Source: Malacoraja senta
Taxonomy: Eukaryota
Assembly (NCBI GenBank): GCA_038087875.1
Contig: JAXLNO010002694.1
Span: forward strand, 186,001-250,000
Direction of reading: 5' to 3'
Length of the DNA: 64,000 nt
The notes beneath the pieces are model-generated. The model searched no databases. It worked only from the letters and a program-made list of their open reading frames with translations, and was not told where the DNA came from. Shown in pieces: positions 1-64,000 of the stretch. The position numbers were made by a program, and so were the translations under genes. Within the stretch, counting starts at the first letter, position 1. The number at the start of each line of letters is the position of its first letter.

Positions 1-1011
1 AAACACTGTCATTCTCTAATGCTTGATATTGCCCACCTTGGAAAGTATGATGACAACATCATACAGCAAAAGGATATACTTCAGCACATCCCAGCGCTAC
101 AAGAGCTTGATGTATCCCTTCTCCTTGGCCCTGGCTTCACTGGAAGTGCCCACCTGTGGTTGAAGCTGCAACAATAATGATATAAATTGAAAGGCGGCAT
201 TAATGAGCCAGGAAAACAGTAACGCACATGTATTTGACGTGCTTAATGACAACTATTTGGTTATAACTATTTATTTTGGAGGAATGACTTGCCTCATCCT
301 CATTCATTTTTATCTGGAATCTTCAATGAAAGTTCCAAAATCATGACATGTAGTTATTTCATTTCATAATTGTAATTGATTCACGTTTCAGAAAAATACA
401 AATTAATACCTGACAGAGATGAGTCACAATCGCTTGGTGGCCTCTGAGGAAATTTTGTATGGCCCGTTCAAGGTGGGAATCCATCTTGTTCCTCCCACCC
501 TCGTCGGGATTGCTGGAGCGATTCCAACTGCTTCCGCAGACTCTTTGAGGGCACTTCTGTTTTTTGAACTGTTCTGGTAGAACAAGTATAAGTTCAGACA
601 CAGAGAGTTAACTGTATTACACCGATGAATGGTTGTCTCATTCATTATCTCGATCATCCTTACTGCTTTTGATGATCCCGGCTCTGCATGTCTTGCTGCC
701 ATCATTCCAACTGCTTTTTGGTGGTTCTCGCTCTCTTCATGTTTCTTGACTGAGTACAGCCTCAAACTCGTGCTACCATTAAAAAACATATTCTGTTTTT
801 TCCCTGGCTCGCCCTTCATATTTGCATCCCTGCACACCTGGCAGAACATTTCCCCTTTATCCTCATCGTACCTCAACCATTTGTGATCACGTTCCCATTC
901 CTTCCTGTAACTTCTTGATCTTTTCTCATCCTCATACTCCTTATTCATTTCATTTTTTCTTTTTGATGCCTCATCCTTTGGGTTTGCCACATTTTTCAGG
1001 TAACGCCACAT
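1..1011 (-). mobile_element. Degenerate hAT-superfamily transposase remnant (ZNF862/TTF zinc-finger type), internally deleted
   Basis: ORF 424-1011 has WLRYD..MFCQVC...KHEES..H (TTF-type Zn finger) joined directly to the late GGTRW motif. Stop-disrupted transposase-like sequence continues to base 1. Confidence 0.7.
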
Positions 1012-1384
1012 GATTGATCTCGAAGATGCACAGGCTGACTTATGGAAAGAAGCATGTGCAAGAGCCCCACGTATTACACTATTGACATAACAGGGGTGCT
1101 TTTTTTATTGCCCCTTTTGTTTTGATTAGATTAAGTGGTCAGTGGCCTGACTTCCTGAAAAACTCGATGTCCCAAAGACTTGGTCTTACACAACCAGTGC
1201 AAGTGTCTCTATCTCTCTCTCATTCTTTTACATCTCTCACGAGCTTGTGCTTTTTCATTCTCTTTCTCTCGCATATCTCTTGCATATCGTAAATTGAAGA
1301 CGTTACACACACATTTGCTGAATACTGTTATTTATTCATTCAAACCGAGGTAAGATTAGCATCCTTAAATGTTAATTGGGTTAT

Positions 1385-1595
1385 TTCATCATCTGCCTGA
1401 CCCGCTGAGTGCAACTTTTTAAATTTCAGATTTTCCACATCTCCAGTACTTCGCTTGTGTGTTATACTTTAACACCAGAAGTAGTAGACCCGAAATGTCA
1501 GACGTCGACCCGAAATGTCGCGTATTTCCTTCGCTCCATCGATGCTGCCTCGTCACCCGCTGAGTTTCTCCAGCATTTTTGATTACCACTAGGTG
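1385..1595 (+). repeat. Penelope pLTR-derived short repeat (degenerate)
   Basis: gacccgaaatgtc...ccatcgatgctgcc...cccgctgagtttctccagcatttt matches the recurrent pLTR repeat seen throughout the window. Confidence 0.55.
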
Positions 1596-2632
1596 CTAAT
1601 TAGGCTACAATAACCCAAATGTGGTGTGGAATGTTTACAGATGATTTTGAATTGAGAAAAAGACAAACATTAGGAAACATACTGAACTGGAGTAGACACG
1701 GGTCCTACCAACATACAGTTCGCCATCTAACAAACCTCAACCTGCCTTGGATTTACAAACTTATCTTTGCTTTATCAATTCTCACTACTTTTCTGGTGAA
1801 GAAATGTTTTGGGTTATTATACCCTACCTGTGGAATAAATGCTTCCAACCAGCACCTCTGAATTTGTCCGTCTCAATTTCAGGGCATCCTCTTGAATGTA
1901 CGTTTCTCCTCATCTCCCCAACAAGATCCTCAATTAAGCCATTTTACTTACTTTTAAAAGGAATACGAAACCTCATTCATAATTGAGGCGTTTAGCTACT
2001 TCCTGTAACTTCTTTACCTTTTCATTTTTGCACTTATTTTCTTTGTGTTTGTGTCTTCAAACATCATTCGCGCACTCTTTATCTCAAAATGTATTTCTTT
2101 TTTTTTGCCTCATCCTTTGGGCTGCCCTGCCTTTGGAACATCTCCCACCAAGAGTTGTACCTCAAATAAGACAATTACTACTCCACTTTAACAATGACGA
2201 TGGCAGCCAAGATGTGGTGTCAGATGGGCTGGGACTAGAGGGTGCAAACGAATGAAACAGAAGGTATTGGGGGTTAGGTGCAAGTTTGCTATCCAAGGTA
2301 GGATGGTGTTGTTACCTTGGGGTTTGACAATGAGAAGAGGAATTAAGGGTTCGCAGATGATTTGAATGAAAGTTGAGACCTGACAAAACTTAAGGAGAGG
2401 GGAAATGGGAGTTGCAATAACAGTTTGGTGTTAGCTTTGTTTTACAGAATGTTTTGTTTCCTGCCCAGCTCCCATTGCTTTGCACTGAACGATAACAGTT
2501 TTGTTTGCTGCGCAAACCTTGCAGAAAAGAAAATGGTGAGACAGACCAGGAGGGATTCATTGGGCCCTTCCTGCTTGGAGAAATATTCAGGCAAAATCCG
2601 AAAATTAATACATTATTTAAAAAATACAACAT

Positions 2633-2844
2633 TGTAGCGGCCTGAACGAGGTCAGTAAAAGGCCAGACGCCAGACGGGTTTAATTAGCAGACTTTAATGT
2701 TTTACCACGAGAGCACCTCACACACACACCTCGAGAGAACTAAAACCAGGGTCGACTGGAAACCCCGTGGCAGACCAGTCCACTGTCCTTCACTCGGCGA
2801 GGGGGATGATCCAAGGAGTGGCTTACCCCCCAGGGACCGCCACA
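2633..2844 (-). repeat. 3' LTR of gypsy element 1
   Basis: Direct repeat of 5977-6188 with 3 substitutions. TG...CA termini. Adjacent PPT at about 2848-2856. Confidence 0.95.
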
Positions 2845-3040
2845 TGACCCCCCCCCAAGTACCCGAGACACGAAACGGACAGGAGGCCGTACACGGCGGC
2901 CAGCGCGGGTACACACCACGCCCTGCCCCGGAACAGGCAACTGACCAACAGGTGCATGGGACCGAGTTACCAGAGGAGGTACCCTAGACAGAGGCCGCCC
3001 TCGCTTACGAGGCCGCGCTACCAACTCCGGCTGATCGATA

Positions 3041-4669
3041 TCAATATGTGCTGGCCAACCGCGCAACTGAAACAGTCTCATGCCGACCCCCCATGTCCAG
3101 GACGAAAGAGGATGAGCCATGTTCCAGTACCCGAAAGGGACCCTCGTACGGCCGCTGGAGAGGTGTCCGATGCGCATCCCTGCGCAGAAAAACGAACTGG
3201 CAGTCCACCAGGGCAGGCGGAAAATGGGGACGGAAAGACCCATGACGAGACGTTGGCACCGGCGCCAACTTGCCCACCGTGTGCCGAAGACGTTGTAGAG
3301 CGTCCGAAGGCTGCTCCGCCTGACCACGTGCCGACGGGATGAATTCCCCGGGCACCGTCAACGGAGACCCATATACCAACTCCTCTTTGGGTGCGGTGCG
3401 GATCCCCAGCAAAACCCACGGCAGAGCGTCCACCCAGTCCGGATCCTTGAGCCGTGCCTTCAGGGCGTCCTTAAGTTGACGGTGAAACCGCTCCACCAAG
3501 CCGTTCGCCTGCGGGTGGTACGCCGTCGTGTGGTGCAGACGAACACCCAGGAGACGTGCCATGGCCGCCCACAGCTCCGACGTGAACTGAGGCCCCCGGT
3601 CGGAAGTTATGTCCAGTGGCACTCCGAACCTGGCGATCCAATGCACCACCAAGGCTCGAGCACAAGTAGTCGTTGCCGAATTCGGTAGCGGGATGGCTTC
3701 AGGCCACCGCGTAAAGCGGTCCACAACGGTGAATAGGTAGGTCATGCCCTGGGACGACGGCAGCGGCCCCACGATGTCCACGTGAATGTGGTCGAAACGC
3801 TGCCTTGGAATGGGGAACTCCTGCAACGGCGCGCGCACGTGTCGTTGCACCTTGGCGGTCTGGCACGAGATGCAGGTGCGCGCCCAGTGTCCAACCTCCT
3901 TCCGCAGTCCGTGCCCCATGAAACGGGCGGCCACCAGGGCCGTTGTCGCCCGGATGGAGGGATGCGCAAGCCCATGGAGCACCTCAAACACCCTGCGCCG
4001 CCAGGCGATGGGGACAATGGGTCGCGGAACCCCAGAGGAGACATCGCACAGCAGCGTTGCACCCCCAGGACCACAGACAACGTCCTCCAACTGCAGGCCC
4101 GAAACTGCCGTACGATAAGCGGACATCTCCTCGTCGACCAACTGAGCGGCTGCTAGGGCGGAATAATTGATCCCCTCGGCGACTTGGAGAACCGCGTTGA
4201 CTGCAGGTCTAGATAAGGCATCGGCCACTTTGTTGAATTTGCCCTCAACGAACCGGATGGAGGTTGTGTATTCGGACACATACGCCAACTGCCTCTGCTG
4301 CCGGGCAGACCACGGGTCTGAAACCTTGGCGAACGCGAAGGTTAACGGCTTGTGGTCCGTAAACACAGTAAACAGCCTCCCCTCCAGGAAATAGCGGAAA
4401 TGGCGTACAGCGAGATATAGGGCAAGGAGCTCGCGGTCAAAAGCACTGTAACGGCGTTGAGCACCACTGAGATGCCTGCTGAAGAAGGCGAGTGGCCGCC
4501 AGTATCCATCGACGAGCTGCTCCAACACTGCCCCAACCGCAATCTCAGAAGCGTCTACCGTCAAGGCGGTCGGGGCGTTCTCCCGTGGGTGGACGAGCAT
4601 GGTGGCTTCAGCCAGTGCCTGCTTAGCCCTATCACCAGGTGTGTGTGAGGTGCTCTCGTGGTAAAACAT
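3041..4669 (-). CDS. pol: RNase H-integrase part of pol, fused to an LTR-derived ATG (542 aa; frameshifted near C-terminus)
   Basis: TVDAS and ELLA RNase H motifs, H-H-C-C Zn finger, HVDIVGP/TSDRGPQF/VERFH DDE triad, RPYEGPF GPY/F motif. Confidence 0.85.
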   Translation of the reverse strand: MFYHESTSHTPGDRAKQALAEATMLVHPRENAPTALTVDASEIAVGAVLEQLVDGYWRPLAFFSRHLSGAQRRYSAFDRELLALYLAVRHFRYFLEGRLFTVFTDHKPLTFAFAKVSDPWSARQQRQLAYVSEYTTSIRFVEGKFNKVADALSRPAVNAVLQVAEGINYSALAAAQLVDEEMSAYRTAVSGLQLEDVVCGPGGATLLCDVSSGVPRPIVPIAWRRRVFEVLHGLAHPSIRATTALVAARFMGHGLRKEVGHWARTCISCQTAKVQRHVRAPLQEFPIPRQRFDHIHVDIVGPLPSSQGMTYLFTVVDRFTRWPEAIPLPNSATTTCARALVVHWIARFGVPLDITSDRGPQFTSELWAAMARLLGVRLHHTTAYHPQANGLVERFHRQLKDALKARLKDPDWVDALPWVLLGIRTAPKEELVYGSPLTVPGEFIPSARGQAEQPSDALQRLRHTVGKLAPVPTSRHGSFRPHFPPALVDCQFVFLRRDAHRTPLQRPYEGPFRVLEHGSSSFVLDMGGRHETVSVARLASTY

Positions 4670-4733
4670 TAAAGTCTGCTAATTAAACCCGTCTGGCGTC
4701 TGGCCTTTTACTGACCTCGTTCAGGCCGCTACA
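4639..4733 (+). repeat. Inverted partial LTR copy (putative R-U5) followed by the element's own degenerate PBS at 4735
   Basis: Reverse complement of 2633-2727. Ends CCGCTACA, then CTGGTGACCCACGCC. Confidence 0.9.
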
Positions 4734-4765
4734 CTGGTGACCCACGCCGTCCATCACGCGTCGTG

Positions 4766-5587
4766 ATGGAGAATAACGCCGTTGCGTTGAAGCTCCCTAC
4801 TATGTGGACTGAAGAAGCTGACACTTGGTTCCAGCAGGCAGAGGCACAGTTTGCTTTGAGAGGAATTACGGTAGATGAGACTAAATATTATTATGTGATT
4901 GGGGCGCTGGACCAAGCAACCGCAAGGAGAATTAAGCCGTTCCTCAAGACCCCCCCGGTAACAAACAAATATAGCGGCATGAAGGCATACCTTATTAGGA
5001 GGTTCGGCCTAGGTGACTCCGAGCGGGCAGCTCGGATTTTCAGAATGGAGGGGCTGGGCGACCGCCGGCTGTCCGACCTCCTGGAGGACATGCTAACCCT
5101 AATGGGGGACCATGAACCTTGCTTTCTGTTTAAATATGCCTACCTGCAGCAGCTACCGTCCGACATCCGTATGCAGCTCGCCAGGAATCCATTTACCGAC
5201 ATGCGGGAGCTGGGTGAGCAAGCTGACGAACTTTGGATGAATCGCCATAACGAGGTGCTGAACGTCTTTCCCGCGGCTTTTGGAGGCTCAGAGCAGGTCG
5301 GCAACGCTATCGACCGCGTCTCCACCGCTCCCAGTCGGGCCCCGCGGCAAAATCCGGCCGCCATTGCGCAATCCACTGCAGGCACATCTTTCCAGTATGG
5401 CCAGCCTGCAGTTCCACTTAACGCCAGCAGAGGTCGCTGGCGTCCAAACCAGCCAAATTGGTATGCAGTTCCACAAGACACCAACAGAGGAGGTTGGTGC
5501 TCTTACCACCGTCGCTGGGGAGCTGCAGCCAGGAGATGTGTTCCACCCTGTTCATTCCCGGGAAACGAAAGGGCCGGTCGTCAGTAA
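4766..5587 (+). CDS. gag: Gypsy Gag (intact ORF, inverted relative to the LTRs)
   Basis: AVALKLPTMW..WFQQAEAQFALRGIT.DETKYY N-terminus, C-terminal WCSYHRRWG..ARRC.PPC knuckle, GGGAAAC slippery site at 5560-5566. Confidence 0.9.
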   Translation: MENNAVALKLPTMWTEEADTWFQQAEAQFALRGITVDETKYYYVIGALDQATARRIKPFLKTPPVTNKYSGMKAYLIRRFGLGDSERAARIFRMEGLGDRRLSDLLEDMLTLMGDHEPCFLFKYAYLQQLPSDIRMQLARNPFTDMRELGEQADELWMNRHNEVLNVFPAAFGGSEQVGNAIDRVSTAPSRAPRQNPAAIAQSTAGTSFQYGQPAVPLNASRGRWRPNQPNWYAVPQDTNRGGWCSYHRRWGAAARRCVPPCSFPGNERAGRQ

Positions 5588-5960
5588 TTCCTTCGGCGGC
5601 CGGCAAAATTCATCGCGTCTTCGCCTGGGATCGTCGCACGGGAGGTCGATTCCTTGTGGACACTGGTGCGGAAGTGAGCGTTCTGCCCCCCTCCATAACT
5701 GACATCCGGGCGGGTAAACGAGGGCCCCTCCTCACCGCGGCGAACGGGAGTGCTATCCGCACCTACGGGTTTCGCACCATTCCCCTCAACTTTGGCCGCA
5801 GCTCCTTTTCATGGAAGTTCGTAATTGCTGACGTTTCCCAGCCGCTGCTGGGCGCCGACTTCCTCCGAGCTCATTCACTGCTCGTGGATGTCAAGCGGGG
5901 GCGCCTGATGCATTCTGTCACGCTGGAGCCGGTCTTCCTCCGTATTGGTGATCCTGTATC
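5560..5960 (+). pseudogene. pol: 5' part of pol (aspartic protease), truncated at the tRNA-copy junction
   Basis: [11 protein letters not shown] and LLGADFL motifs in the -1 frame relative to gag. Confidence 0.85.
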
Positions 5961-5975
5961 ACGTCGGGGTCACCA
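5958..5975 (-). other. Primer-binding site: perfect 18-nt complement of the tRNA-Trp 3' end
   Basis: The plus strand reads ATCACGTCGGGGTCACCA, the vertebrate tRNA-Trp(CCA) 3' 18-mer including CCA, 1 nt from the 5' LTR. Confidence 0.85.
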
Positions 5976-5976
5976 G

Positions 5977-6188
5977 TGTAGCGGCCTGAACGAGGTCAAT
6001 AAAATGCCAGACGCCAGACGGGTTTAATTAGCAGACTTTAATGTTTTACCACGAGAGCAGCTCACACACACACCTCGAGAGAACTAAAACCAGGGTCGAC
6101 TGGAAACCCCGTGGCAGACCAGTCCACTGTCCTTCACTCGGCGAGGGGGATGATCCAAGGAGTGGCTTACCCCCCAGGGACCGCCACA
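5977..6188 (-). repeat. 5' LTR of gypsy element 1
   Basis: 212-bp repeat of 2633-2844, followed in element orientation by the PBS. Confidence 0.95.
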
Positions 6189-6332
6189 ACATAAAATATA
6201 CAACAAAAATTTCATGTTTCTACCTTAGAGAAGTACAGAGTAACGAAACACACACACAAAATCAGTTAACAATCACATTCACAAATATTACATATACATG
6301 ATCAAAATAAATGCATGCATTAAATCAATGAA

Positions 6333-6432
6333 GTCTGAAGAAGGGTCTCGATCCGAAACGTCGCCTTTTTTCTTCGCTCCATAGATGCTTGTGCCTCGCC
6401 TGCCGAGTTTCTCCAGCATTTATGTCTACCTT
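6333..6432 (+). ncRNA. Penelope pLTR fragment with minimal hammerhead-ribozyme-like core
   Basis: CTGAAGA (6335) - A GGGTCTCGATCC hairpin - GAAACGTC (6355-6362). Confidence 0.55.
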
Positions 6433-10535: not shown

Positions 10536-12234
10536 TCTCTACTCATTCAAGCAGGCTGGAGAGGCATTCTAAGACACTGGTACAATGTTGGATCTTTTGA
10601 AGCAGGCATGGACCACGGACTTGGACAGGGAGAGGTTGAATATTGTGGTGAGCACTGGAGCAAACAGATTGGCACAATACTTTAGTACTCGCCCAGATAT
10701 AACATCTGTGCCTACAGCTTTCCACGTGTTCACACGTGTCAGAGCCCACCTCAGGTCGTGCTCGGACACCGAGAATGTGTGCACATCCGCAGCGGTGCAC
10801 CTCCTTCCAACCTCGCTAGCCAGCGCGCTGGCGGTGTTGTTGTCAGTGGGCGACTAGGGGTGATGTTGCCCGTCTCGAATCGTGCGTAAAAAGTGTTCAG
10901 GTCATCAACGAAGGAGGTGCCGGCACTCCCGGTTGAGGGGAGGCTGCTCTGGTAGTTAGTTATAGTCCATAGCCCCTGCCAAAGGCATCTGATGTCCCAC
11001 TGCTCCATCTGCGACTTCATCCTGTCCCTGTACCTCCTTTTTGCGTACTTCACCGCCCATCGCAGTCTGTACGACTCTACCTTGTAGTCGTCCATATTGC
11101 CAGGCTGGAGTTGTAAGCAGCGGTGCGAGCATTCAACGCAACGCGAATGGACTTGTCCACCTAGGGTTTTTGATTGGAAAGATGCTAACCCTTACCGTGG
11201 GGATGATGTTATCGGCTATTGTTGCAATGAAGTCTGTGACCGCTTCCGCAAACTCACTGACGTCTCTGGAACTTGACTGGAACATATTTCAGTCGACATA
11301 GAAACATAGAATCATAGAAAATAGGTGAAGGAGTAGGCCATTCGGCCCTTCGAGCCTGCACTGCCATTCAATATGATCATGGTTGTGCATCCTGCATTCA
11401 ATATGATCGGTCAGTGCATCCTGCAGCATGGCCTCTGAATGGCCAGACCACCGCTTTACGTCCCTCGTCACTGCTGCTTCCCGTACTATCCATTATTTAT
11501 ACTCCGGCAGCAGGAAAATGGCAGCGTGGTCAGATTTTCCAAAAGGAGGAAGAGAAACGGCCTTGTAGCCTTTTCTGAACGCCGTGTGGCAGTGGTCCAA
11601 AGTTCTTTCCCCCATGGTGATGTGTTGGCAGAAGTTAGGCATAACCTTTTTGAGATTTGCCTTATTAAAATCCCCAGTCACCACCATAGCCGCATCAGGG
11701 TTCTTGTTCTGATGCCGACATAACACATCGTGTAGGGCCGATAGTGCCACATCGGCATGTGGTGGTATGTAGATGGCTGTGATGATCACTGAGCTGAGCT
11801 CCCGGGGAAGGTAGAATGAATGATGAATGTGTAGTGCGTGGGTCTCGGAATGAAGCACGAAGTCGTATTTCGAGAAGCACTTTTTATTAGGTTCCTCCCA
11901 GTTCAAGGGAAGACCAAACGAGAGGAAGATGGCACCCAAACCCCTGCCTTTAAAGCCTCCGGCTAAGGGCCGCCTCCGGACTGAACCACTCCTGTGCCGA
12001 GGGGTTCGACACTATGACGGCACGACCCTTGGGAGCCGCCACAGGACCCCCCCCCAGAACCAGAGGCACGAAACGCACCGGCGGGCGAACGACCCGGCCG
12101 GCCCGCGTGCGGAAGTTAGCCGCTCGTGGGGCTTGCGGAGGCATAGGTGGAGGGACAGGACGAGGGACCGGCGGGAGGACAGGTGGAGTGACAGGCGGAG
12201 GGAGCCGTGAAGGGGGGCGCCCTCGAGGCCGAGG

Positions 12235-15231
12235 TTAGGCAACCAGCACCGGCTGGTCAATGTCCAGGTGTGCCGGCTTCAAACGGTCAATCGACACTGC
12301 CTCCGGCCGGCCCCCCATGTCCAGGACAAAAGTCGACTGCCCGTGTTCCAGCACTCGGAACGGGCCCTCGTACGGCCTCTGGAGTGGCGTCCGGTGGGCA
12401 TCACGGCGCAGGAAGACGTACGGGCAGTCCCTGAGGGCTGATGGCACGTGTGGGCGAAATGTCCCATGGCGGGACGTCGGGATGGGTGCGAGCCTGCCAA
12501 CCTGCTCGCGAAGGCGCTTTAGGGTGGATGAGGGCGTTCCCTGCTGCCCCGGCGCCGACGGCACGAACTCCCCGGGCACCGTGAGTGGCGACCCGTAAAC
12601 GAGCTCCGCCGATGATGAGGCCAAGTCCTCTTTGGGAGCGGTCCGGATGCCCAGCATCACCCACGGCAACTCGTCCATCCAGTCTGGGCCGGAGAGTCGT
12701 GCCTTCAGTGCTGCCTTCAGCTGCCGGTGGAATCTCTCCACCAGACTGTTAGCTTGCGGGTAGTAAGCCGTGGTGTGGTGTAGCCGCACCCCCAGCAAGT
12801 GAGCCATGGCTGACCACAGCTCGGAGGTGAACTGTGGCCCCCGGTCTGAGGAGATGTGCGCTGGCACCCCGAAGCGAGCAATCCAGTGCGCGGACAACGC
12901 ACGAGCACACGTAACCGTTGAAGTATCGGTCAACGGAATGGCCTCCGGCCACCGCGTGAAGCGGTCCACCATTGTCAGAAGGTGGGTGATGCCCCGGGAT
13001 GGCGGGAGAGGGCCTACAATGTCTATGTGGAGATGGTCGAACCGCCGGTGAGGTAGACCAAACTCCTGGAGAGGCGCACGGACATGGCGCTGGATTTTTG
13101 CCGTCTGGCACGGAATGCAGGTGCGAGCCCAATGGCCAACCTGCTTGCGCAGACCGTGCCACATGAAACGAGCGGCCACTAGTGCCGTTGTCGCCCAGAT
13201 TGATGGGTGAGACAGTCCGTGGATCACCTCGAACACCCTCCGGCGCCAGGTGGCAGGGACGATGGGGCGCGGCTGACCGGACGACACATCGCACAGGATT
13301 GTCACTCCCCCAGGACCGAGAGGGACATCCTCAAGGCGGAGGCCGGAGATGGCAGTCCGGTAGGCGGGCACCTCATCGTCCGTGAGCTGTGCCGCCGCCA
13401 GAGCAGAATAGTCCACTCCGGGCGCCACCTCGAACACGGCGTTGATAGCGGGCCGGGACAATGCGTCGGCCACCCGGTTCTCTTTTCCCTTGATGTAGCA
13501 GATAGATGTCGTGTACTCCGATATGTAGGCCAATTGCCGCTGCTGTCGTGCGGACCAGGGATCGGAAACCTTCTGCAGGGCGAAAGTGAGCGGCTTATGG
13601 TCGGTGTAGGCGGTGAACGGGCGGCCCTCCAAGAAGTAGCGAAAATGGCGCACAGGCAGGTACAGAGCCAGGAGCTCACGATCGAACGCGCTGTACTTGG
13701 TCTGCGCACGGTTGAGGTGCCGACTGAAGAAGGCCAGGGGCCGCCAACCTCCGCCCGTCAGCTGCTCCAGCACAGCACCAACAGCCGGCTCCAAGGCGTC
13801 CACCGTGAGAGCAGTCGGGGCATCTCCCCGCGGGTGTACCAGCAGTACGGCCCGAGCAAGGGCCTCCTTCGCGCCGTCAAAAGCTGCCTCCGCCTCGTGG
13901 GTCCACTCCACGCTCTTGTGCTGCCCACCCGCCAGAAGTTGATACAGGGGCCGCATGATGTGGGCCGCGGATGGCACGAAACGATGGTAAAATGCCACCA
14001 TGCCAACAAATTCCTGCAGGTCACGCACCGTGCGTGGGCGGGGAAACCGACATATGGCGTCGACCCTGTCAGGCAGGGGAACCGCGCCTTGCGCAGTCAC
14101 GCGGTGGCCGAGGAAGTCAATTTCGCTCACCCCAAAACGGCACTTGTCCAGGTTGATGGCCAAACCATGCTCGCTGAGTCGCTGACAGCTGCCGAAGATG
14201 AGCGCAGTGTTCCTGTTGGAGCGGCTGGCCACCAGGATGTCGTCCAGGTACACGAACACGAAATCGAGGCCACGACAAACCCCGTCCATGAGGCGCTGAA
14301 AGGCCTGTGCAGCGTTTTTGAGGCCGAACGGCATCCGAGTAAACTCGTAAAGCCCGAATGGCGTGATGATCGCCGTCTTCGGCACGTCATCCGGGTGAAC
14401 CGGGATCTGATTATAACCCCGTACCAGATCCACTTTGGAAAATATTGTGGCCCCAGCCAAATGGGCCGTGAAGTCCTGGATGTGGGGTACGGGGTATCGA
14501 TCCGCTGTTGTTGCAGCGTTCAACTGTCGGTAATCCCCACAAGGTCGCCAGCCCCCGCTTGACTTGGAGACCATGTGGAGTGGGGACGCCCAAGGGCTGC
14601 TCGAAGGGCGGACGATCCCTAAGGCCTCCATCGTGCGGAATTCCCGCCGTGCCAGACACAGTTTATCTGGCGGCAGTCGCCGTGCTCGTGCATGGAGTGG
14701 TGGGCCGGTAGTCGGGATATAATGTAACACCCCGTGGCTGGGGGTTGCTGATTGAAACTGCGCATGGAGAATGTCCGGGAACGCAGCCAAGATCCGTGCG
14801 AATCGGGAGTCCACGGACGCCAGTGGCCGTCCCACCGGTTGATCCACACGCAACGTGATCGGCTCCATCGTAGTGGCGTTGATCAAACGCTGACGCCCGA
14901 CGTCCACCATGAGGGAATGCGCCCGGAGGAAATCGGCCCCGAGCAATGGTTGGGAGACATCAGCGATAGTGAACCACCACGAGAAATGACAGGAGCCGAG
15001 CACGATGGGAACCATGCGCAGTCCATATGTGCGGATGGGGCTGCCGTTCGCCGCGGTGAGGACGGGCCCCTGCTTACCGGAACGAATGTCGGCCAGCGAA
15101 GGGGGCAGGACGCTGAGCTCCGCTCCAGTATCCACGAGGAAGCGGGTCCCGGAGCGCCGATCCCAGGCGAAAAGGCGGTGAATTTGGCCGGCCGCCACGG
15201 GGACTATTGGCAGCCGGCCCAGGGGTTTCCC
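12235..15231 (-). CDS. pol: Gypsy Pol (PR-RT-RH-IN)
   Basis: [19 protein letters not shown], RNase H, HHCC, DDE and GPY/F motifs. About 11 codons after YLDD are scrambled by two compensating deletions. Confidence 0.9.
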
Positions 15232-16122
15232 GGGAACATGCACGGCTGGCTGCATTGTCGTGCTGCAGCACCCCAGAGCTGATGGTAGTAGCACCAGTTC
15301 CTCGTGTTGGTGCTACTTGGAGCTTGCCTGCTCCTGCTGGTGGTGCCTGCAGCCTGCTGACGCTGGACTGCAGGTGCAGTACGCCTCACTGCCGCTGGGG
15401 TTGATCGTACGGGCCGTCGGGCTGGAGCTGTCACTCCTTCCACCGCTCCCCCGCCCCACCGGAGGAAATCGGGAGCTGCTGGGGTGACGTCATCGGCGTG
15501 CCTGCTGACAGCCAGCGCGTTGACGTCATCAGGGCGCGTCGACCTCAGCGCGACCCCGTCTCTGCTGACGCCCAGCGCGCTGACGTCATCAGGGCGCGCC
15601 ATCCACAGGGCGTCGGCGCGCCTCCCGAGGGCCCGAAGGTCGGCAAACGAGACGTCGGTGAGCTGCAACCGAATGTAGGCCGGCAGCAGATGCAGGTAGG
15701 TATACTCAAACAACAGGCACGGCGTGTGCCCGTCTAGTAGCGCCACCATCTCCTTTAGGAGGGTAGATGGCCGTCGGTCGCCCAGGCCCCCCATATGCAG
15801 GATCCTACTTGCCCGCTCCATCCTACTCAGTCCGTAAATGTGGAGCAGGAGCTCTTTCAGGCCGAGGTATTTATCATCGTTCGGGGGGTCTGGCGAGGAA
15901 GTCCGTGACCTCTTCAACCGCATCCTGGTCGAGGGCTCCCACCAGGTAATAGAAGCGGGTGGCATCGACCGTGATGCCCCGCAGGTTGAACTGGGCCTCC
16001 GCCTGCTGGAACCAGATGAGCGGCCGGGTGGTGCAGAAGTTGGGCAGTTTCACGGAGACCGCGTCCAGAGACAGGGCCGGGCCAGCCTGTGAGGAGGTAG
16101 GGCTTTGTCCACTCTCCATCAT
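15204..16122 (-). pseudogene. gag: Gypsy Gag with one frameshift near 15885
   Basis: AVSVKLPNF..WFQQAEAQFNLRGIT in one frame. The remainder, with WCYYHQLWG knuckle and GGGAAAC slippery site (15231-15225), is in another. Confidence 0.85.
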
Positions 16123-16366
16123 GACGCCAATGGAGCGTCGGGGGTCACCAATGTAGTGCGTGGGTCTCGGAATGAAGCACGAAGTCGTATTTCGAGAAGC
16201 ACTTTTTATTAGGTTCCTCCCAGTTCTAGGGAAGACCAAACGAAGAGGAAGATGGCACCCAAACCCCTGCCTTTAAAGCCTCCGGCTAAGGGCCGCCTCC
16301 GGACTGAACCACTCCTGTGCCGAGGGGTTCGACACTATGATGGCACGACCCTTGGAAGCCGCCACA

Positions 16367-60800: not shown

Positions 60801-62840
60801 AGGCAAAGGTGGGTGAAGTGTCTTGCCCAAGGACACAACGACAGTATGCACTCCAAGCGGGATTCGAACCGGCTACCTTCCAGTTGCCAGCCGAACACTT
60901 AGCCCATTGCGCCATCTGTCGTCAACAATAGACAATAGGTGCAGGAGTAGGCCATTCGCCCCATCGAGCCAGCACCGCCATTCACTGTGATCGTGGCTGA
61001 TCATGATAGGAAAGGTTTAGAGGCATATAGGCCAAATGCGGGCAGGTGGGACTAACTTAGATGGGACATCTGAGTTGACATGGACCAGTTGGACTGAAGG
61101 ACCTGTTTCTGTGCTGTTTGACTCTTTGACTCTAAAGGAAGCATTTTAAGAAATGGGTTAGGGTTAGAGTTAAGAATGGTCTTGACCCAAAATGTCACCC
61201 ATTCTCTCCAGAAATGTTACCTGTCCCGCTGAGTTACTCCAGCTTTTTGTGTCTCTTTTGAAGAAATGACCAGCCATGCTACCATGTTAAATTAAATTGG
61301 TAATTAGGCCCAGACAGGATCATGGATAAAATGAACCATCCGTGCCCCGGGAGATGTGATGAAACTGTTAGTATGTTGCATCCCAGTGTGAATAGAGTCC
61401 TCCCCCCAGTGCATGCAGAGCACTGCTTGCCCAGTTCATCCCACTGACAGCGTCTAGGTCTCACACTGACACACTGACTGAACACTTAATCTCTGTCAGT
61501 CAGTGCACCATAACCTCTGACCAACCTCTCGAAAATGCACAGCCCACTAACAGTGCAGCAATCCCTCGATCCCGATCTGACCATGTTACGCTCCCACATC
61601 AGACACTGGGCAGTGTAAAGCTCCCTCAATACTCAGCCACAACACAACACAAGGTCATAACCTGCCCGAACCACCCACTCTAGCCCCTTAGATAGACACA
61701 AAATGCTGGAATAACTCAGCGGGACAGGCAGCATCTCTGGAGAGAAGGAATGGGTGACATTTTGAGTCAAGATCCATCTTCACACCCGAAACATCACCCA
61801 TTCAGAGATGCTGCCTGTCCCGCTGAGTTACTCCAGCATTTTGTGTCTATCTTCGGTTTAAACCAGCAACTGCAGTTCCTCCCTACACTCTAGTCTAGCC
61901 CCTTCTTCCTCATCCCTCATACTCTGAATTGAATTGAAAGCTAGTTATTCGGCCCATCGAGTTGATACTGTCCATTGATCATCCGTTTACAGTAGTTCTA
62001 TGTTATCCCACTTTCTCAACCACTTAACCAATTAACCTACAAACCCGCACGTCTTTGGTGTCTAAAAAACAAAGATAAGAGAATGGACAGGCAATGTTTC
62101 GGATTGGGACCCTTCTTAGAATCATACTGCACAGAAACAGACCATTCGACCAAACTCGTCCATGCCATGACGACCAAGATGAGCCATCTAAGCTATTCCC
62201 ATTTGCCCGCATTTGATCCATATCCCTCTCAACCTATCCTACCCTCGCATCTGTCCATATCTCTTTTAAATGCTGTTACTGATTCTGCCTCACCTACCTC
62301 CGCAGTCTGAAGAAGGGTCTCGACCCAAAACGTCACCCGTTCCTTCTCTCCAGCGATGCTGCCTGTCCCGCTGAGTTACTCCAGCATTTTGCGTCCACAG
62401 TTTAAACCGGCATCTGCAGTTTCTTCCTACATACTTCCTCTGGCAACTCATTCCGTGCACCCACCACCATCTGAGTGAAAATGTTGCCCCTCAGGTTCCT
62501 ATTAAATCTTTCCCCTCTCACCTTATGACTTCTGGTTCCCGATTTCTACCTCCGCAGTCTGCCTCATCTACCTCCGCAGTCTGAAGAAGGGTTTCGGCCC
62601 GAAACGTTGCTTATTTCCTTCGCTCCATAGATGCTGCTGCACCCGCTGAGTTTCTCCAGCATTTTTGTGTCCCTCCACGGCTGCTGCCCGACCCGCTGAG
62701 TTTCTCCTGTTACTTTCTCGAAGTAACAGGAGAAACATTCGCTGCCACACAACCACTGTCTTACCTGCGTGGTCTCCCGATACAGAGCACAGAGACAAGA
62801 CGGCGATCAGGAGTGATACAGGTACATTGTAACTTTCCAT
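36758..62840 (-). CDS. Divergent (non-classical) MHC class I-like heavy chain, 5 coding exons, 320 aa: join(62840-62765, 56327-56079, 54191-53922, 51416-51135, 36843-36758)
   Basis: The exons join into one open frame with phase-1 GT-AG introns. Kozak GCCGCCAAGATGG, signal peptide, alpha1 SHSLIYF/YYD/RQQW/EYW, alpha2 GC...CIPDL, alpha3 IgC1 [27 protein letters not shown]. Exon 5 is less certain than exons 1-4. Confidence 0.85.
38096..38362 (-). mobile_element. HE1-type SINE
   Basis: Reverse complement of the HE1-like consensus seen at 56411. Confidence 0.75.
40687..41910 (+). pseudogene. DIRS gag-like ORF1 (broken)
   Basis: [35 protein letters not shown] motif, placed between the ITR and RT. 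Confidence 0.6.
41936..43650 (+). pseudogene. DIRS RT-RNase H (stops, frameshifts and a LINE insertion)
   Basis: [40 protein letters not shown] and [15 protein letters not shown] motifs. Confidence 0.9.
42895..43176 (+). mobile_element. 282-bp 3' end of an I/Nimb-like LINE inserted in the DIRS RT
   Basis: 14-bp TSD AATGCTGTTTCTGA (42881-42894, 43177-43190), [10 protein letters not shown] knuckle remnant and (GAA)n tail. Confidence 0.7.
43644..44054 (+). pseudogene. DIRS adenine-methyltransferase-like domain
   Basis: [25 protein letters not shown] and [13 protein letters not shown] motifs. Confidence 0.8.
44040..44990 (+). pseudogene. DIRS tyrosine recombinase (broken)
   Basis: [26 protein letters not shown] catalytic motifs spread over several frames. 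Confidence 0.8.
46811..46821. promoter_or_regulatory. Consensus NF-kB site in a unique intronic island
   Basis: GGGATTTCCCC matches GGGRNWYYCC. Two GGAAAGT half-sites at 46635 and 46659. Motif match only. Confidence 0.25.
46988..47284 (+). mobile_element. HE1-type SINE
   Basis: GGTGGCGC..GGTAGAG head, GGTTCGATCC B-box and CTCTAAAC tail. Confidence 0.8.
47712..49245 (-). mobile_element. 5'-truncated Rex/Babar LINE with an uninterrupted RT ORF (47874-49190, 438 aa)
   Basis: [47 protein letters not shown] motifs and a (CAATA)n tail. Confidence 0.9.
49262..49745 (-). mobile_element. Rex/Babar-type LINE 3' fragment (second subfamily)
   Basis: [18 protein letters not shown] and HPLH...[12 protein letters not shown] motifs. 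Confidence 0.7.
49950..51090 (-). mobile_element. CR1 3' fragments, interrupted by a Vingi-like element
   Basis: [14 protein letters not shown] and [11 protein letters not shown] motifs. Confidence 0.75.
50537..51051 (+). mobile_element. Internally deleted non-autonomous Vingi/Ingi-like LINE
   Basis: 9-bp TSD ACCACCCTC. The 5' part [12 protein letters not shown] (APE start) is joined to the C-terminal [13 protein letters not shown]. The stop codon overlaps the (TAAA)n tail. Confidence 0.6.
51135..51416 (-). CDS. Class I-like exon 4 (alpha3, IgC1 domain, 282 nt)
   Basis: ttcttccccag acceptor, G|gtaagt donor, C-x-W-x-C Ig core, FYP and LPNHDDTY motifs. Confidence 0.92.
51427..52130 (+). mobile_element. 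Rex/Babar LINE 3' fragment
   Basis: PLSING..VE.V..FKFLG..ITNDLS and [13 protein letters not shown] motifs. Confidence 0.8.
52225..52540 (+). mobile_element. CR1 3' fragment
   Basis: [10 protein letters not shown] and [12 protein letters not shown] motifs. Confidence 0.8.
52990..53880. repeat. Degenerate short tandem repeats (CCAGATCAG.AGCTCCCTCACC-like), interrupted by SINE/pLTR inserts
   Basis: The motif recurs at about 53040-53285 and 53695-53875. Confidence 0.5.
53320..53545. repeat. Foldback pLTR-derived insertion with 10-bp TSD
   Basis: Arms about 53360-53433 and 53470-53544. TSD AGTGATAGAT (53310-53319, 53546-53555). Confidence 0.8.
53922..54191 (-). CDS. Class I-like exon 3 (alpha2, 270 nt)
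   Basis: tgcttctttacag acceptor, G|gtaggt donor, YFQGLWGC...[18 protein letters not shown]. Confidence 0.85.
54842..55301 (-). mobile_element. Unclassified SINE-like / non-autonomous retroelement
   Basis: CpG-rich body beginning GATGGCAGCC and ending AATAAATTAATTACAATT. Family not identified. Confidence 0.4.
55325..55790. repeat. Minisatellite, about 10 copies of a ~46-bp unit
   Basis: GCAGGGGAT.(AC)AGTGAGA(GA)TGGT.TACTGTG(G/C)ATCAGT units start at 55331, 55377, 55423, 55470 and onward. Confidence 0.85.
56079..56327 (-). CDS. Class I-like exon 2 (alpha1, 249 nt)
   Basis: CTAAC branch point, pyrimidine tract and cag acceptor, G|gtaggt donor. [26 protein letters not shown]. Confidence 0.9.
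56411..56709 (+). mobile_element. HE1-type tRNA-derived SINE, full length
   Basis: GGCGGCACGGTGG head and GGGCCTGTTTC..CTGTATCTCTAAACTAAAC tail. Confidence 0.85.
57389..57625. repeat. Foldback pLTR insertion with two inverted hammerhead-like cores and a 16-bp TSD
   Basis: 90-bp arms 57392-57481 and 57499-57588 (2 mismatches) with a 17-nt spacer. TSD AACATATGACCTCAGG. Confidence 0.9.
59445..59962 (-). mobile_element. CR1/HER1 3' fragment
   Basis: [36 protein letters not shown] motifs. Confidence 0.9.
60177..60460 (-). mobile_element. HE1-type SINE
   Basis: Reverse complement of the 56411 family. Confidence 0.8.
60571..60923 (-). mobile_element. tRNA-derived SINE (second family), near-identical to 35847-36173
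   Basis: 8 substitutions and one 10-bp indel between the copies, by manual alignment. Confidence 0.85.
62581..62612 (+). ncRNA. Minimal hammerhead-like motif in a pLTR fragment
   Basis: CTGAAGA-AGGGTTTCGGCCC-GAAACGTT. Confidence 0.5.
62765..62840 (-). CDS. Class I-like exon 1 (signal peptide [25 protein letters not shown], 76 nt)
   Basis: GCCGCCAAGATGG Kozak context, hydrophobic core, G|gtaaga donor, phase 1. Confidence 0.85.
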
Positions 62841-63260: not shown

Positions 63261-63289
63261 CGTGTACACCTGAGAAATCATTCTGCCCA

Positions 63290-63990
63290 TGCATCGTACG
63301 CCCTACACCTCACCCCTTCAATCCCACTCCCCTCCCATTCTATCCCACTCCCCTTTACCCAACTGCCCACACCCCACTCCCCTGCCCCACATTCGTACAG
63401 CACGAACCCCTCCATCCCACTCCCCGCCATCCCCACCATCCCATTCCCCTCAATCCCACTCCCCTCCATCCCACTCCCCTCCATCCCAATCCCCTCCATC
63501 CCACTCCCCTCAATCCCGTCCATCCCAATCCCCTCCATCCCAATCCCCACCATCCCACTCCCCTCAATCCCCTCCATCCCACTCCCCTCAATCCCCTCCA
63601 TCCCAATCCCCTCCATCCCCTCCATCCCAATCCCCTCCATCCCAATCCCCTCCATCCCATTCCCCTCAATCCCACTCCCCTCCATCCCAATCCCCACCAT
63701 ACCACCCCTCAATCCCCTCCATCCCAATCCCCTCCATCCCACTCCCCTCCATTCCCTCCATCCCAATCCCCTCCATCCGCTCAATCCCCTCCATCCCAAT
63801 CCTCTCCATCCCACTCCCCTCAATCCCCTCCATCCCAATCCCCACCATCCCACACCCCTCAATCCCCTCCATCCCAATCCCCTCCATCCCACTCCCCTCA
63901 ATCCCCTCCATCCCACTCCGCTCCATCCCACTCCCCTCCATCCCAATCCCCTCAATCCCCTCCACCCTAATCCCCACTATCCCACTCCCT
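63290..63990 (-). repeat. G-rich ~15-bp minisatellite (GGGATGGAGGGGA(T/G)T), running almost to the window end
   Basis: Plus strand CCATCCCA(A/C)TCCCCT repeats over about 700 bp. Confidence 0.95.
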
Positions 63991-64000
63991 CTGTACTCTG

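What the first reader, a model, noticed from the sequence alone, without database searches (positions are those of the whole stretch)
4636..6188. Fossil of an aberrant second-strand transfer: perfect 18-nt tRNA-Trp copy priming an inverted R-U5-gag-PR segment
Reading from the 5' LTR on the minus strand, the order is: a perfect 18-nt tRNA-Trp complement (5975-5958), an antisense copy of PR-gag-PBS-LTR end, then a jump into RNase H. About 0.95 kb including all of RT is missing relative to gypsy 2. The element's own PBS (4735, TGGTGACCCACGCC) matches the tRNA for only 9 nt, so the 18-mer was probably copied from the primer itself. 18 nt is the known length of the primer copy in plus-strand strong-stop DNA. 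Inferred model: strong-stop DNA failed to anneal to the imperfect PBS, mis-primed on a sense template in PR (ATC microhomology), copied back to the RNA 5' end, then jumped to the minus-strand cDNA. Intact LTR ends and the ACAT TSD indicate the product was integrated in this form.
Basis: partly seen in the sequence, partly recalled or inferred. Interest (0 to 1): 0.72.

Follow-up and report, generated by a model that had tools for sequence, protein, structure and literature searches.

The report
Primer-tRNA scars in failed gypsy copies
This jumping-gene copy carries an 18-letter match to the end of its primer tRNA followed by an inverted piece of itself, and 16 other independent copies in the genome carry the same kind of tRNA tag, nearly all broken right behind it, which likely means that a copying intermediate thought to be a dead end is often rescued by mis-priming and inserted.

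Summary
Observation confirmed, interpretation mostly supported. The minus-strand Ty3/gypsy copy reads 5' LTR, 18-nt tRNA-Trp complement, inverted PR-gag-PBS-partial LTR, then RNase H-integrase, PPT, 3' LTR; 936-957 nt (RT) are absent; TSD ACAT. Ordinary copies have a 9-nt PBS match. Corrections: the microhomology is 6 nt (ATCACG), so only 3 nt are uniquely tRNA-derived in this copy; an end at the RNA 5' terminus is unsupported; a TSD would survive a later inversion. The case rests on recurrence: 17 independent family insertions carry a 13-18 nt tRNA tag (13 of 17 exactly 18), 16 of 17 break right behind it, against 2 of 35 copies with the family PBS. Ordinary copies hold two sense ATCACG sites; both serve as inversion starts, the protease one twice independently. 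A neighbouring family does the same (10 of 91 places). This fits the Ty3 model (tRNA-tailed strong-stop DNA is a dead end) and resembles aberrant second-strand transfer in HIV. No reads bridge the junction. Two look-ups found no earlier scan note of this.

The parts
2629..2632 (.). Target-site duplication ACAT, left copy
2633..2844 (-). 3' LTR, 212 nt, TG...CA
   Evidence: no private sites among fetched copies
2848..2856 (-). Polypurine tract (G run) 3 nt upstream of the 3' LTR
3041..4634 (-). RNase H and integrase part of pol, in the element's own orientation; RT absent upstream
   Evidence: Pfam RT_RNaseH, Integrase_H2C2, rve; ordinary copies match up to 4634
4635..4638 (.). Second junction: 2 to 4 bases that fit neither side, no clear microhomology
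4639..4733 (+). Inverted partial LTR (LTR positions 118-212), identical to the 3' LTR, ending in a GT repeat
4735..4743 (+). Family PBS, 9-nt match to tRNA-Trp, inside the inverted block
4750..4770 (+). Leader hairpin (9-bp stem) holding the first sense ATCACG site (4753-4758) and the gag start codon
   Evidence: predicted fold, z -2.4 for 4734-4775; site positions
4766..5587 (+). gag ORF, 273 aa, inverted relative to the LTRs
   Evidence: DUF7041 E 8.7e-16
5584..5963 (+). Protease region, inverted, ending at the second sense ATCACG site (5958-5963)
   Evidence: gag-asp_proteas E 2.3e-05, below curated cut-off; junction
5958..5975 (-). 18-nt complement of the mature tRNA-Trp 3' end; 5975-5967 equals the family PBS, 5966-5964 only tRNA, 5963-5958 shared with protease antisense
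5977..6188 (-). 5' LTR, 212 nt, with three private substitutions (5999, 6005, 6060)
6189..6192 (.). Target-site duplication ACAT, right copy
11830..16365 (-). Neighbouring colinear gypsy element of a second family, used as comparison

Best explanation
The element is a defective Ty3/gypsy insertion whose 5' LTR is followed by a copy of the primer tRNA-Trp end and an inverted piece of the element, likely made when tRNA-tailed plus-strand strong-stop DNA mis-primed during reverse transcription. Steps: (1) the plus strand ran 18 nt into the primer and stopped before position 58 (tag shown; cause, m1A58, inferred from retroviral knowledge); (2) only 9 nt match the family PBS, so the tag's 3' half had no normal acceptor (shown by sequence); (3) its last 6 nt paired with sense ATCACG in protease and RT copied backwards through gag, PBS and U5 (junction shown; template, genomic RNA or plus DNA, inferred); (4) RT left at the GT repeat and jumped, probably end to end, onto minus-strand DNA at RNase H, losing RT (inferred); (5) integrase inserted the product (inferred). 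Ordinary progeny likely come from a tag-free strong-stop DNA, as in the Ty3 model, which is why the short PBS is inherited.
For: 22 genome places have LTR end plus at least 13 nt of tRNA complement, control 0; 3 of other families dropped and 2 duplicate pairs merged leave 17. 13 of 17 match exactly 18 nt, none 19. 16 of 17 break directly behind the tag against 2 of 35 family-PBS copies, Fisher p 2e-10. Most full-length ordinary copies have two sense ATCACG sites, leader and protease; 7 clear inversions start there (5 leader, 2 protease) and 3 short ones fit the leader site. L049 repeats the window's protease junction at another insertion with another TSD and second junction. 9 of 17 have a perfect 4-bp TSD; in L051 the TSD flanks an LTR end rebuilt 20 nt behind the tag, so that rearrangement preceded integration. 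Tags with 0-2 nt overlap also end at 18 (L039; second family L137, L143, L145). Second family: 10 of 91 places broken behind a 13-19 nt tag, 3 inverted.
Against: In the window copy alone only 3 nt are uniquely tRNA-derived, and for ATCACG-primed copies the 18-nt end point is partly built in by the 6-nt overlap. Inversions next to the PBS also occur without a tag (L079, L088), and many family-PBS copies have internal deletions further on, so the tag is not needed for mis-switching. The second junction has no microhomology to fix step 4. Three of the copy's 9 private sites cluster in 95 nt of the 5' LTR (about p 0.05 after correction), unexplained. In the second family 8 of 18 tagged places (4 independent) continue into a normal leader: either correct transfer with an inherited tag or a 1-nt slip in a C run.
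Confidence: 0.85

Rival explanations
1. Post-insertion inversion and deletion by host DNA repair (microhomology-mediated template switching) in an ordinary copy; the tRNA match arises by chance from the 9-nt PBS, 3 filler bases and the 6-nt protease site.
For: A TSD survives such events; only 3 nt are uniquely tRNA-derived; the second junction has untemplated bases; inversions without a tag exist (L079, L088).
Against: The same 3 bases recur in 17 independent insertions and the same protease junction in L049; L051 has its TSD outside a rebuilt LTR end; host repair has no access to a CCA-bearing template that the tRNA genes lack; the event also needs a third copy of U5.
Confidence: 0.06
2. Correct second-strand transfer by a tRNA-tailed strand (retrovirus-like inheritance of the tag), followed by a separate switch; or descent from a sub-family with a native 18-nt PBS.
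For: The leader's second hairpin arm equals tag positions 13-18, so a split acceptor exists; L032 runs from a 15-nt tag into the leader; the second family has 4 independent tagged copies with a normal leader.
Against: 0 of 17 tagged copies show 18 nt followed by the normal gag start; after the tag the clear cases read antisense or jump into pol.
Confidence: 0.06
3. Assembly artefact at an inverted repeat.
For: The window lies on a small contig; no contig of runs X1, X2, X5 was seen to bridge 4634-4639 (inconclusive).
Against: An assembler does not add tRNA bases; junctions of the same kind stand at 17 loci, several on the largest contigs, with TSDs; the inner LTR piece differs from the adjacent 5' LTR at 3 sites.
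Confidence: 0.02
4. Auto-integration (inversion circle) product or nested insertion of a second copy.
For: Auto-integration makes inversions in LTR elements (PMC7197481, passages).
Against: No LTR terminus is joined to an internal target: the inner LTR end continues into its natural PBS, and the other end lies mid-LTR; there is no inner TSD.
Confidence: 0.01

Closest known systems
Aberrant second-strand transfer in HIV-1 proviruses (PMC12657518; passages read)
   Same: Defective integrated copies with intact LTRs, tRNA-derived bases behind the PBS region and a jump to a downstream position; 44 such sequences reported.
   Different: There the PBS is a full 18 nt and the defect follows read-through past position 58 (inserts of 7-54 nt); the word 'inversion' does not occur in the main text. 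Here the normal-length 18-nt copy is itself the mismatch, inversions are common, and the copies are germline insertions making up roughly a quarter to a third of counted 5' junctions.
Ty1/Ty3 PPT-recycling model (Lauermann and Boeke 1994, 1997; seen only through reviews PMC5371799, passages, and PMC7472051 section 4.3)
   Same: Short PBS that is strictly inherited; a first plus strong-stop DNA that runs into the tRNA and is not used for productive transfer.
   Different: In Ty3 the tail is 12 nt of initiator tRNA-Met and is described as a dead-end product; here it is 18 nt of tRNA-Trp and ends up integrated in defective copies.
Retroviral vector deletions from errors in plus-strand transfer (Pulsinelli and Temin 1991; recalled, not held)
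   Same: As recalled: deletions starting at the end of the PBS through short homology.
   Different: As recalled: single-cycle vectors with a full PBS; could not be checked here.
Auto-integration inversion circles of plant copia elements (PMC7197481; passages)
   Same: Inverted internal segments in reverse-transcription products.
   Different: Those are circles joined at LTR termini by integrase; here the junctions are at the tRNA tag and mid-LTR.

Membership tests
Ty3/gypsy LTR retrotransposon | Two direct LTRs with TG...CA ends and a short TSD | tested here: met
Ty3/gypsy LTR retrotransposon | Order PR-RT-RNase H-integrase | tested here: met
   RNase H precedes integrase in the window copy; colinear copies run gag-PR, about 0.95 kb, RNase H-IN
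Ty3/gypsy LTR retrotransposon | PBS and PPT | tested here: met
Ty3/gypsy LTR retrotransposon | RT phylogeny and clade (Mag-like is a recalled lead only) | not tested
   no tree was built; one search gave listings only
Aberrant second-strand transfer product | Bases copied from the mature primer tRNA that the parent lacks | tested here: met
Aberrant second-strand transfer product | Junction directly at the 3' end of the strong-stop DNA, with short homology | tested here: met
   6-nt overlap here; 16 of 17 tagged copies break there
Aberrant second-strand transfer product | Rearrangement precedes integration | tested here: inconclusive
   shown for L051 (TSD outside a rebuilt end); for the window copy only inferred
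Ty3-type PPT recycling | PBS inherited from the RNA, not from the tRNA | tested here: met
   family leader kept in 33 of 35 independent family-PBS copies, no 18-nt PBS before gag; the second family has possible exceptions
Ty3-type PPT recycling | Repeated PPT priming giving a tag-free strong-stop DNA | not testable with these tools
   needs intermediates from particles
   no RNA run listed; motif positions only

The most novel reading that the evidence does not exclude
In vertebrate gypsy families with a short PBS, the tRNA-tailed strong-stop DNA is a major source of insertions: a quarter to a third of 5' junctions in this family, more the worse the PBS matches. The leader hairpin is a built-in mis-priming trap, the route yields roughly 240-nt single-LTR mini-elements with rebuilt ends and TSDs, and the tag lengths (18 nt, and up to 39 nt in other families) are a fossil map of RT stops at tRNA modifications.
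Probability: 0.45. Interest if true: 0.72.

Novelty: new variant of a known kind. Interest (0 to 1): 0.58.

Why it matters
How short-PBS gypsy elements complete the second strand transfer is known mainly from yeast Ty1/Ty3. These copies are natural germline records of the intermediate: they show how far RT reads into the primer, that the tag is absent from ordinary progeny, and that tagged strands often end up integrated as deleted, inverted or miniature elements. The question becomes testable in any assembly by counting LTR ends followed by tRNA complement. It also warns annotators: a 'perfect' 18-nt PBS in such a family marks a broken copy, not the most intact one.

Tried and rejected
Reads: no RNA holder listed; all laid runs were contigs; none bridged 4634-4639 in X1, X2, X5, and the piece table for 2400-6400 was cut; neither counts for or against. 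A joint 2625-6332 in X4 (side 20 nt, into a repeat) was not taken as an empty site. The idea that the 5' LTR's R-U5 came from a second parent RNA: the two-site allele occurs only in this copy, one of its sites at 2 other places, so it was dropped. A two-step jump through the PBS at the second junction: a 7-nt match is chance level in 4.4 kb and the protease region offers an equal match. Dropped rows: L034, L036, L037 (other families), L043, L052 and five family-PBS duplicates (shared flanks), two inner inverted PBS copies. Exact patterns miss mutated copies of both classes. Papers: Lauermann and Boeke 1997 and 1994 and the recalled Pulsinelli and Temin paper were not held; PMC3187697 held none of five terms. 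Nine searches (listings only) showed no report of tRNA-tagged defective gypsy copies, but 1990s virology papers are largely outside the library and no supplements were read. Two look-ups of earlier scan notes gave two fungal PPT-replacement notes of another kind and nothing in this genome.

Full report
Observation. The element lies on the minus strand between two 212-nt LTRs (5977-6188 and 2633-2844) flanked by ACAT, with a G-run PPT before the 3' LTR. Behind the 5' LTR and one spacer base come 18 nt (5975-5958) complementary to the 3' end of tRNA-Trp. Two whole tRNA-Trp(CCA) genes were found among 17 fetched loci covering the 21 places that match the T-arm pattern (L100, L103); neither encodes CCA, so the 18-mer matches the mature tRNA, and base 19 does not match. 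Then follows an inverted block, 5963 to 4639: protease, gag (DUF7041), a PBS with only 9 nt of tRNA match, and LTR positions 212-118; RNase H and integrase resume at 4634. The absent stretch is 936-957 nt in the 9 of 20 fetched copies with both anchors.

Two corrections from family copies. Ordinary copies continue the protease sequence through 5963, so the overlap with the tag is 6 nt, ATCACG (14 of 17 other copies with the anchor). As the first 9 nt equal the family PBS, only 3 nt of this copy need the tRNA. At the second junction 2-4 bases fit neither side, and the inner LTR piece has one GT unit fewer if it is extended to 4637. One copy alone would therefore be weak evidence.

Census of the family. 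An exact pattern for LTR end plus family PBS gives 42 places: two are inner inverted copies and five pairs share flanks, leaving 35 independent 5' junctions, of which 2 break within 40 nt (L079, L088). The pattern for LTR end plus 13 nt of tRNA complement gives 22 places, control 0: three belong to other families and two pairs share flanks, leaving 17. The match is 18 nt in 13, 15 in one, 14 in one, 13 in two, never 19. Sixteen of 17 break directly behind the tag (Fisher p 2e-10 against 2 of 35). What follows is antisense leader in 5 clear and 3 short cases, antisense protease in 2 (this copy and L049), a jump to sense sequence in pol or the LTR end in 6, and the normal leader in 1 (L032, 15-nt tag). 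Tagged copies are 17 of 52 counted junctions, or 12 of 47 if the five with LTRs under 90 percent identical are left out. Many family-PBS copies also have internal deletions further downstream.

Priming sites. Most full-length ordinary copies hold two sense ATCACG sites, one in the 5' arm of a predicted 9-bp leader hairpin and one at the end of protease. All inversions among tagged copies start at one of them. L049 has the same tag-protease junction as the window but another flank, TSD, LTR type and second junction after 36 nt, so it is an independent repeat. For these sites the 18-nt end point is partly built in by the overlap; copies with 0-2 nt overlap that also end at 18 (L039, and L137, L143, L145 of the second family) are the cleaner evidence. 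That RT stops before m1A58 is established for retroviruses (PMC12657518, passages); that the skate-like host tRNA carries this mark is inferred (the host group is my reading of its repeats, from no call).

Integration. Nine of 17 have a perfect 4-bp TSD, two match 3 of 4, one does not match, two have a damaged 5' end and three show no 3' end in the fetched stretch. L051 supplies the better argument: one LTR, the tag, two bases, a rebuilt LTR end, and the TSD outside it.

Second family. The neighbouring element (11830-16365) has a PBS one C longer than the tRNA complement. Of 91 places, 18 are of tRNA type: 10 break behind a 13-19 nt tag, 3 of them inverted, and 8 (4 independent) continue into the normal leader, which may be inherited tags or slips in a C run. 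Only 43 of the 91 were fetched, so duplicates are not fully removed. In L143 the antisense copy runs from U3 through the PPT into the 3' untranslated part, so the template there was genomic RNA or full plus DNA, not a strong-stop DNA (inference).

Mechanism. Shown: tag, short family PBS, 6-nt pairing site, recurrence. Inferred: a tRNA-tailed plus strong-stop DNA with no acceptor for its 3' half primed on a sense strand, copied backwards, left at the GT repeat, and joined the minus strand at RNase H, probably end to end given the untemplated bases. The U5-R piece needs a template that still had U5: a second packaged RNA or plus-strand DNA. An end at the RNA 5' terminus is not supported: the start is unmapped, an initiator-like motif (recalled consensus) lies at LTR position 86, and L041 and L045 stop after about 3 and 22 nt of U5. 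Against the reading: tag-free inversions exist (L079, L088), and three of nine private sites cluster in the 5' LTR's last 95 nt (p about 0.05). No read set confirmed or denied the junction.

Comparison. Reviews describe Ty1 and Ty3 as making a first plus strong-stop DNA that runs 12 nt into the tRNA and is a dead end, the PBS being inherited from the RNA (PMC5371799, passages; PMC7472051 section 4.3; the original papers were not held). The family here behaves that way in its ordinary copies, while the tagged strand surfaces in defective ones. Defective HIV proviruses with tRNA inserts at a deletion junction are reported (PMC12657518, passages), there through read-through past position 58. Nine searches (listings only) showed no report for gypsy elements, but older virology papers are mostly outside the library and I recall similar vector deletions from 1991 that I could not read.

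Verdict. Real, recurrent, and best read as aberrant second-strand transfer (0.85). The mechanism class is known; the frequency, the inversion route through the element's own ATCACG sites and the germline record in a vertebrate gypsy family are the new part. New variant of a known kind; interest 0.58.

Noticed in passing
L053, L054, L056-L058, L096-L099, L101, L102, L105: LTR ends of several other families followed by 26-39 nt of tRNA-Trp complement, i.e. read-through past position 58; the longest two end at 39 nt, just before position 37. The search pattern selected for read-through, so this is no frequency.
   Followed up: partly
L104 (G000:C4264:6813-7145): Tandem array with a 52-nt period, each unit an LTR-end-like piece plus 27 nt of tRNA-Trp complement.
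   Followed up: no
L031, L042/L043, L051/L052; second family L145, L150: Mini-elements of about 240 nt: one LTR, tRNA tag, a few bases and a rebuilt LTR end; perfect TSD in L051, 3 of 4 in L031, none in L042.
   Followed up: partly
L049 (L067): Short, diverged LTR, yet its 36-nt inverted protease piece is identical to the window family's; possibly two sub-families packaged together.
   Followed up: no
L079 and L088: Family-PBS copies with antisense switches near the PBS: a fold-back at the leader hairpin (L079) and an inversion from just past protease (L088).
   Followed up: partly
window 5999, 6005, 6060: Three private substitutions confined to the R-U5 part of the 5' LTR, none in the inner copy or the 3' LTR.
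   Followed up: partly
L093 1061-1424: A PPT-side stretch lies upstream of the 5' LTR, suggesting a tandem element sharing an LTR.
   Followed up: no
L115, L126: Two copies of the second family share the same internal deletion (508 to 4201), perhaps a small non-autonomous lineage.
   Followed up: no
window 60848-60922 (-) and 63286-64000: A tRNA-Ala call by ARAGORN and a 15/9-nt minisatellite with open frames.
   Followed up: no
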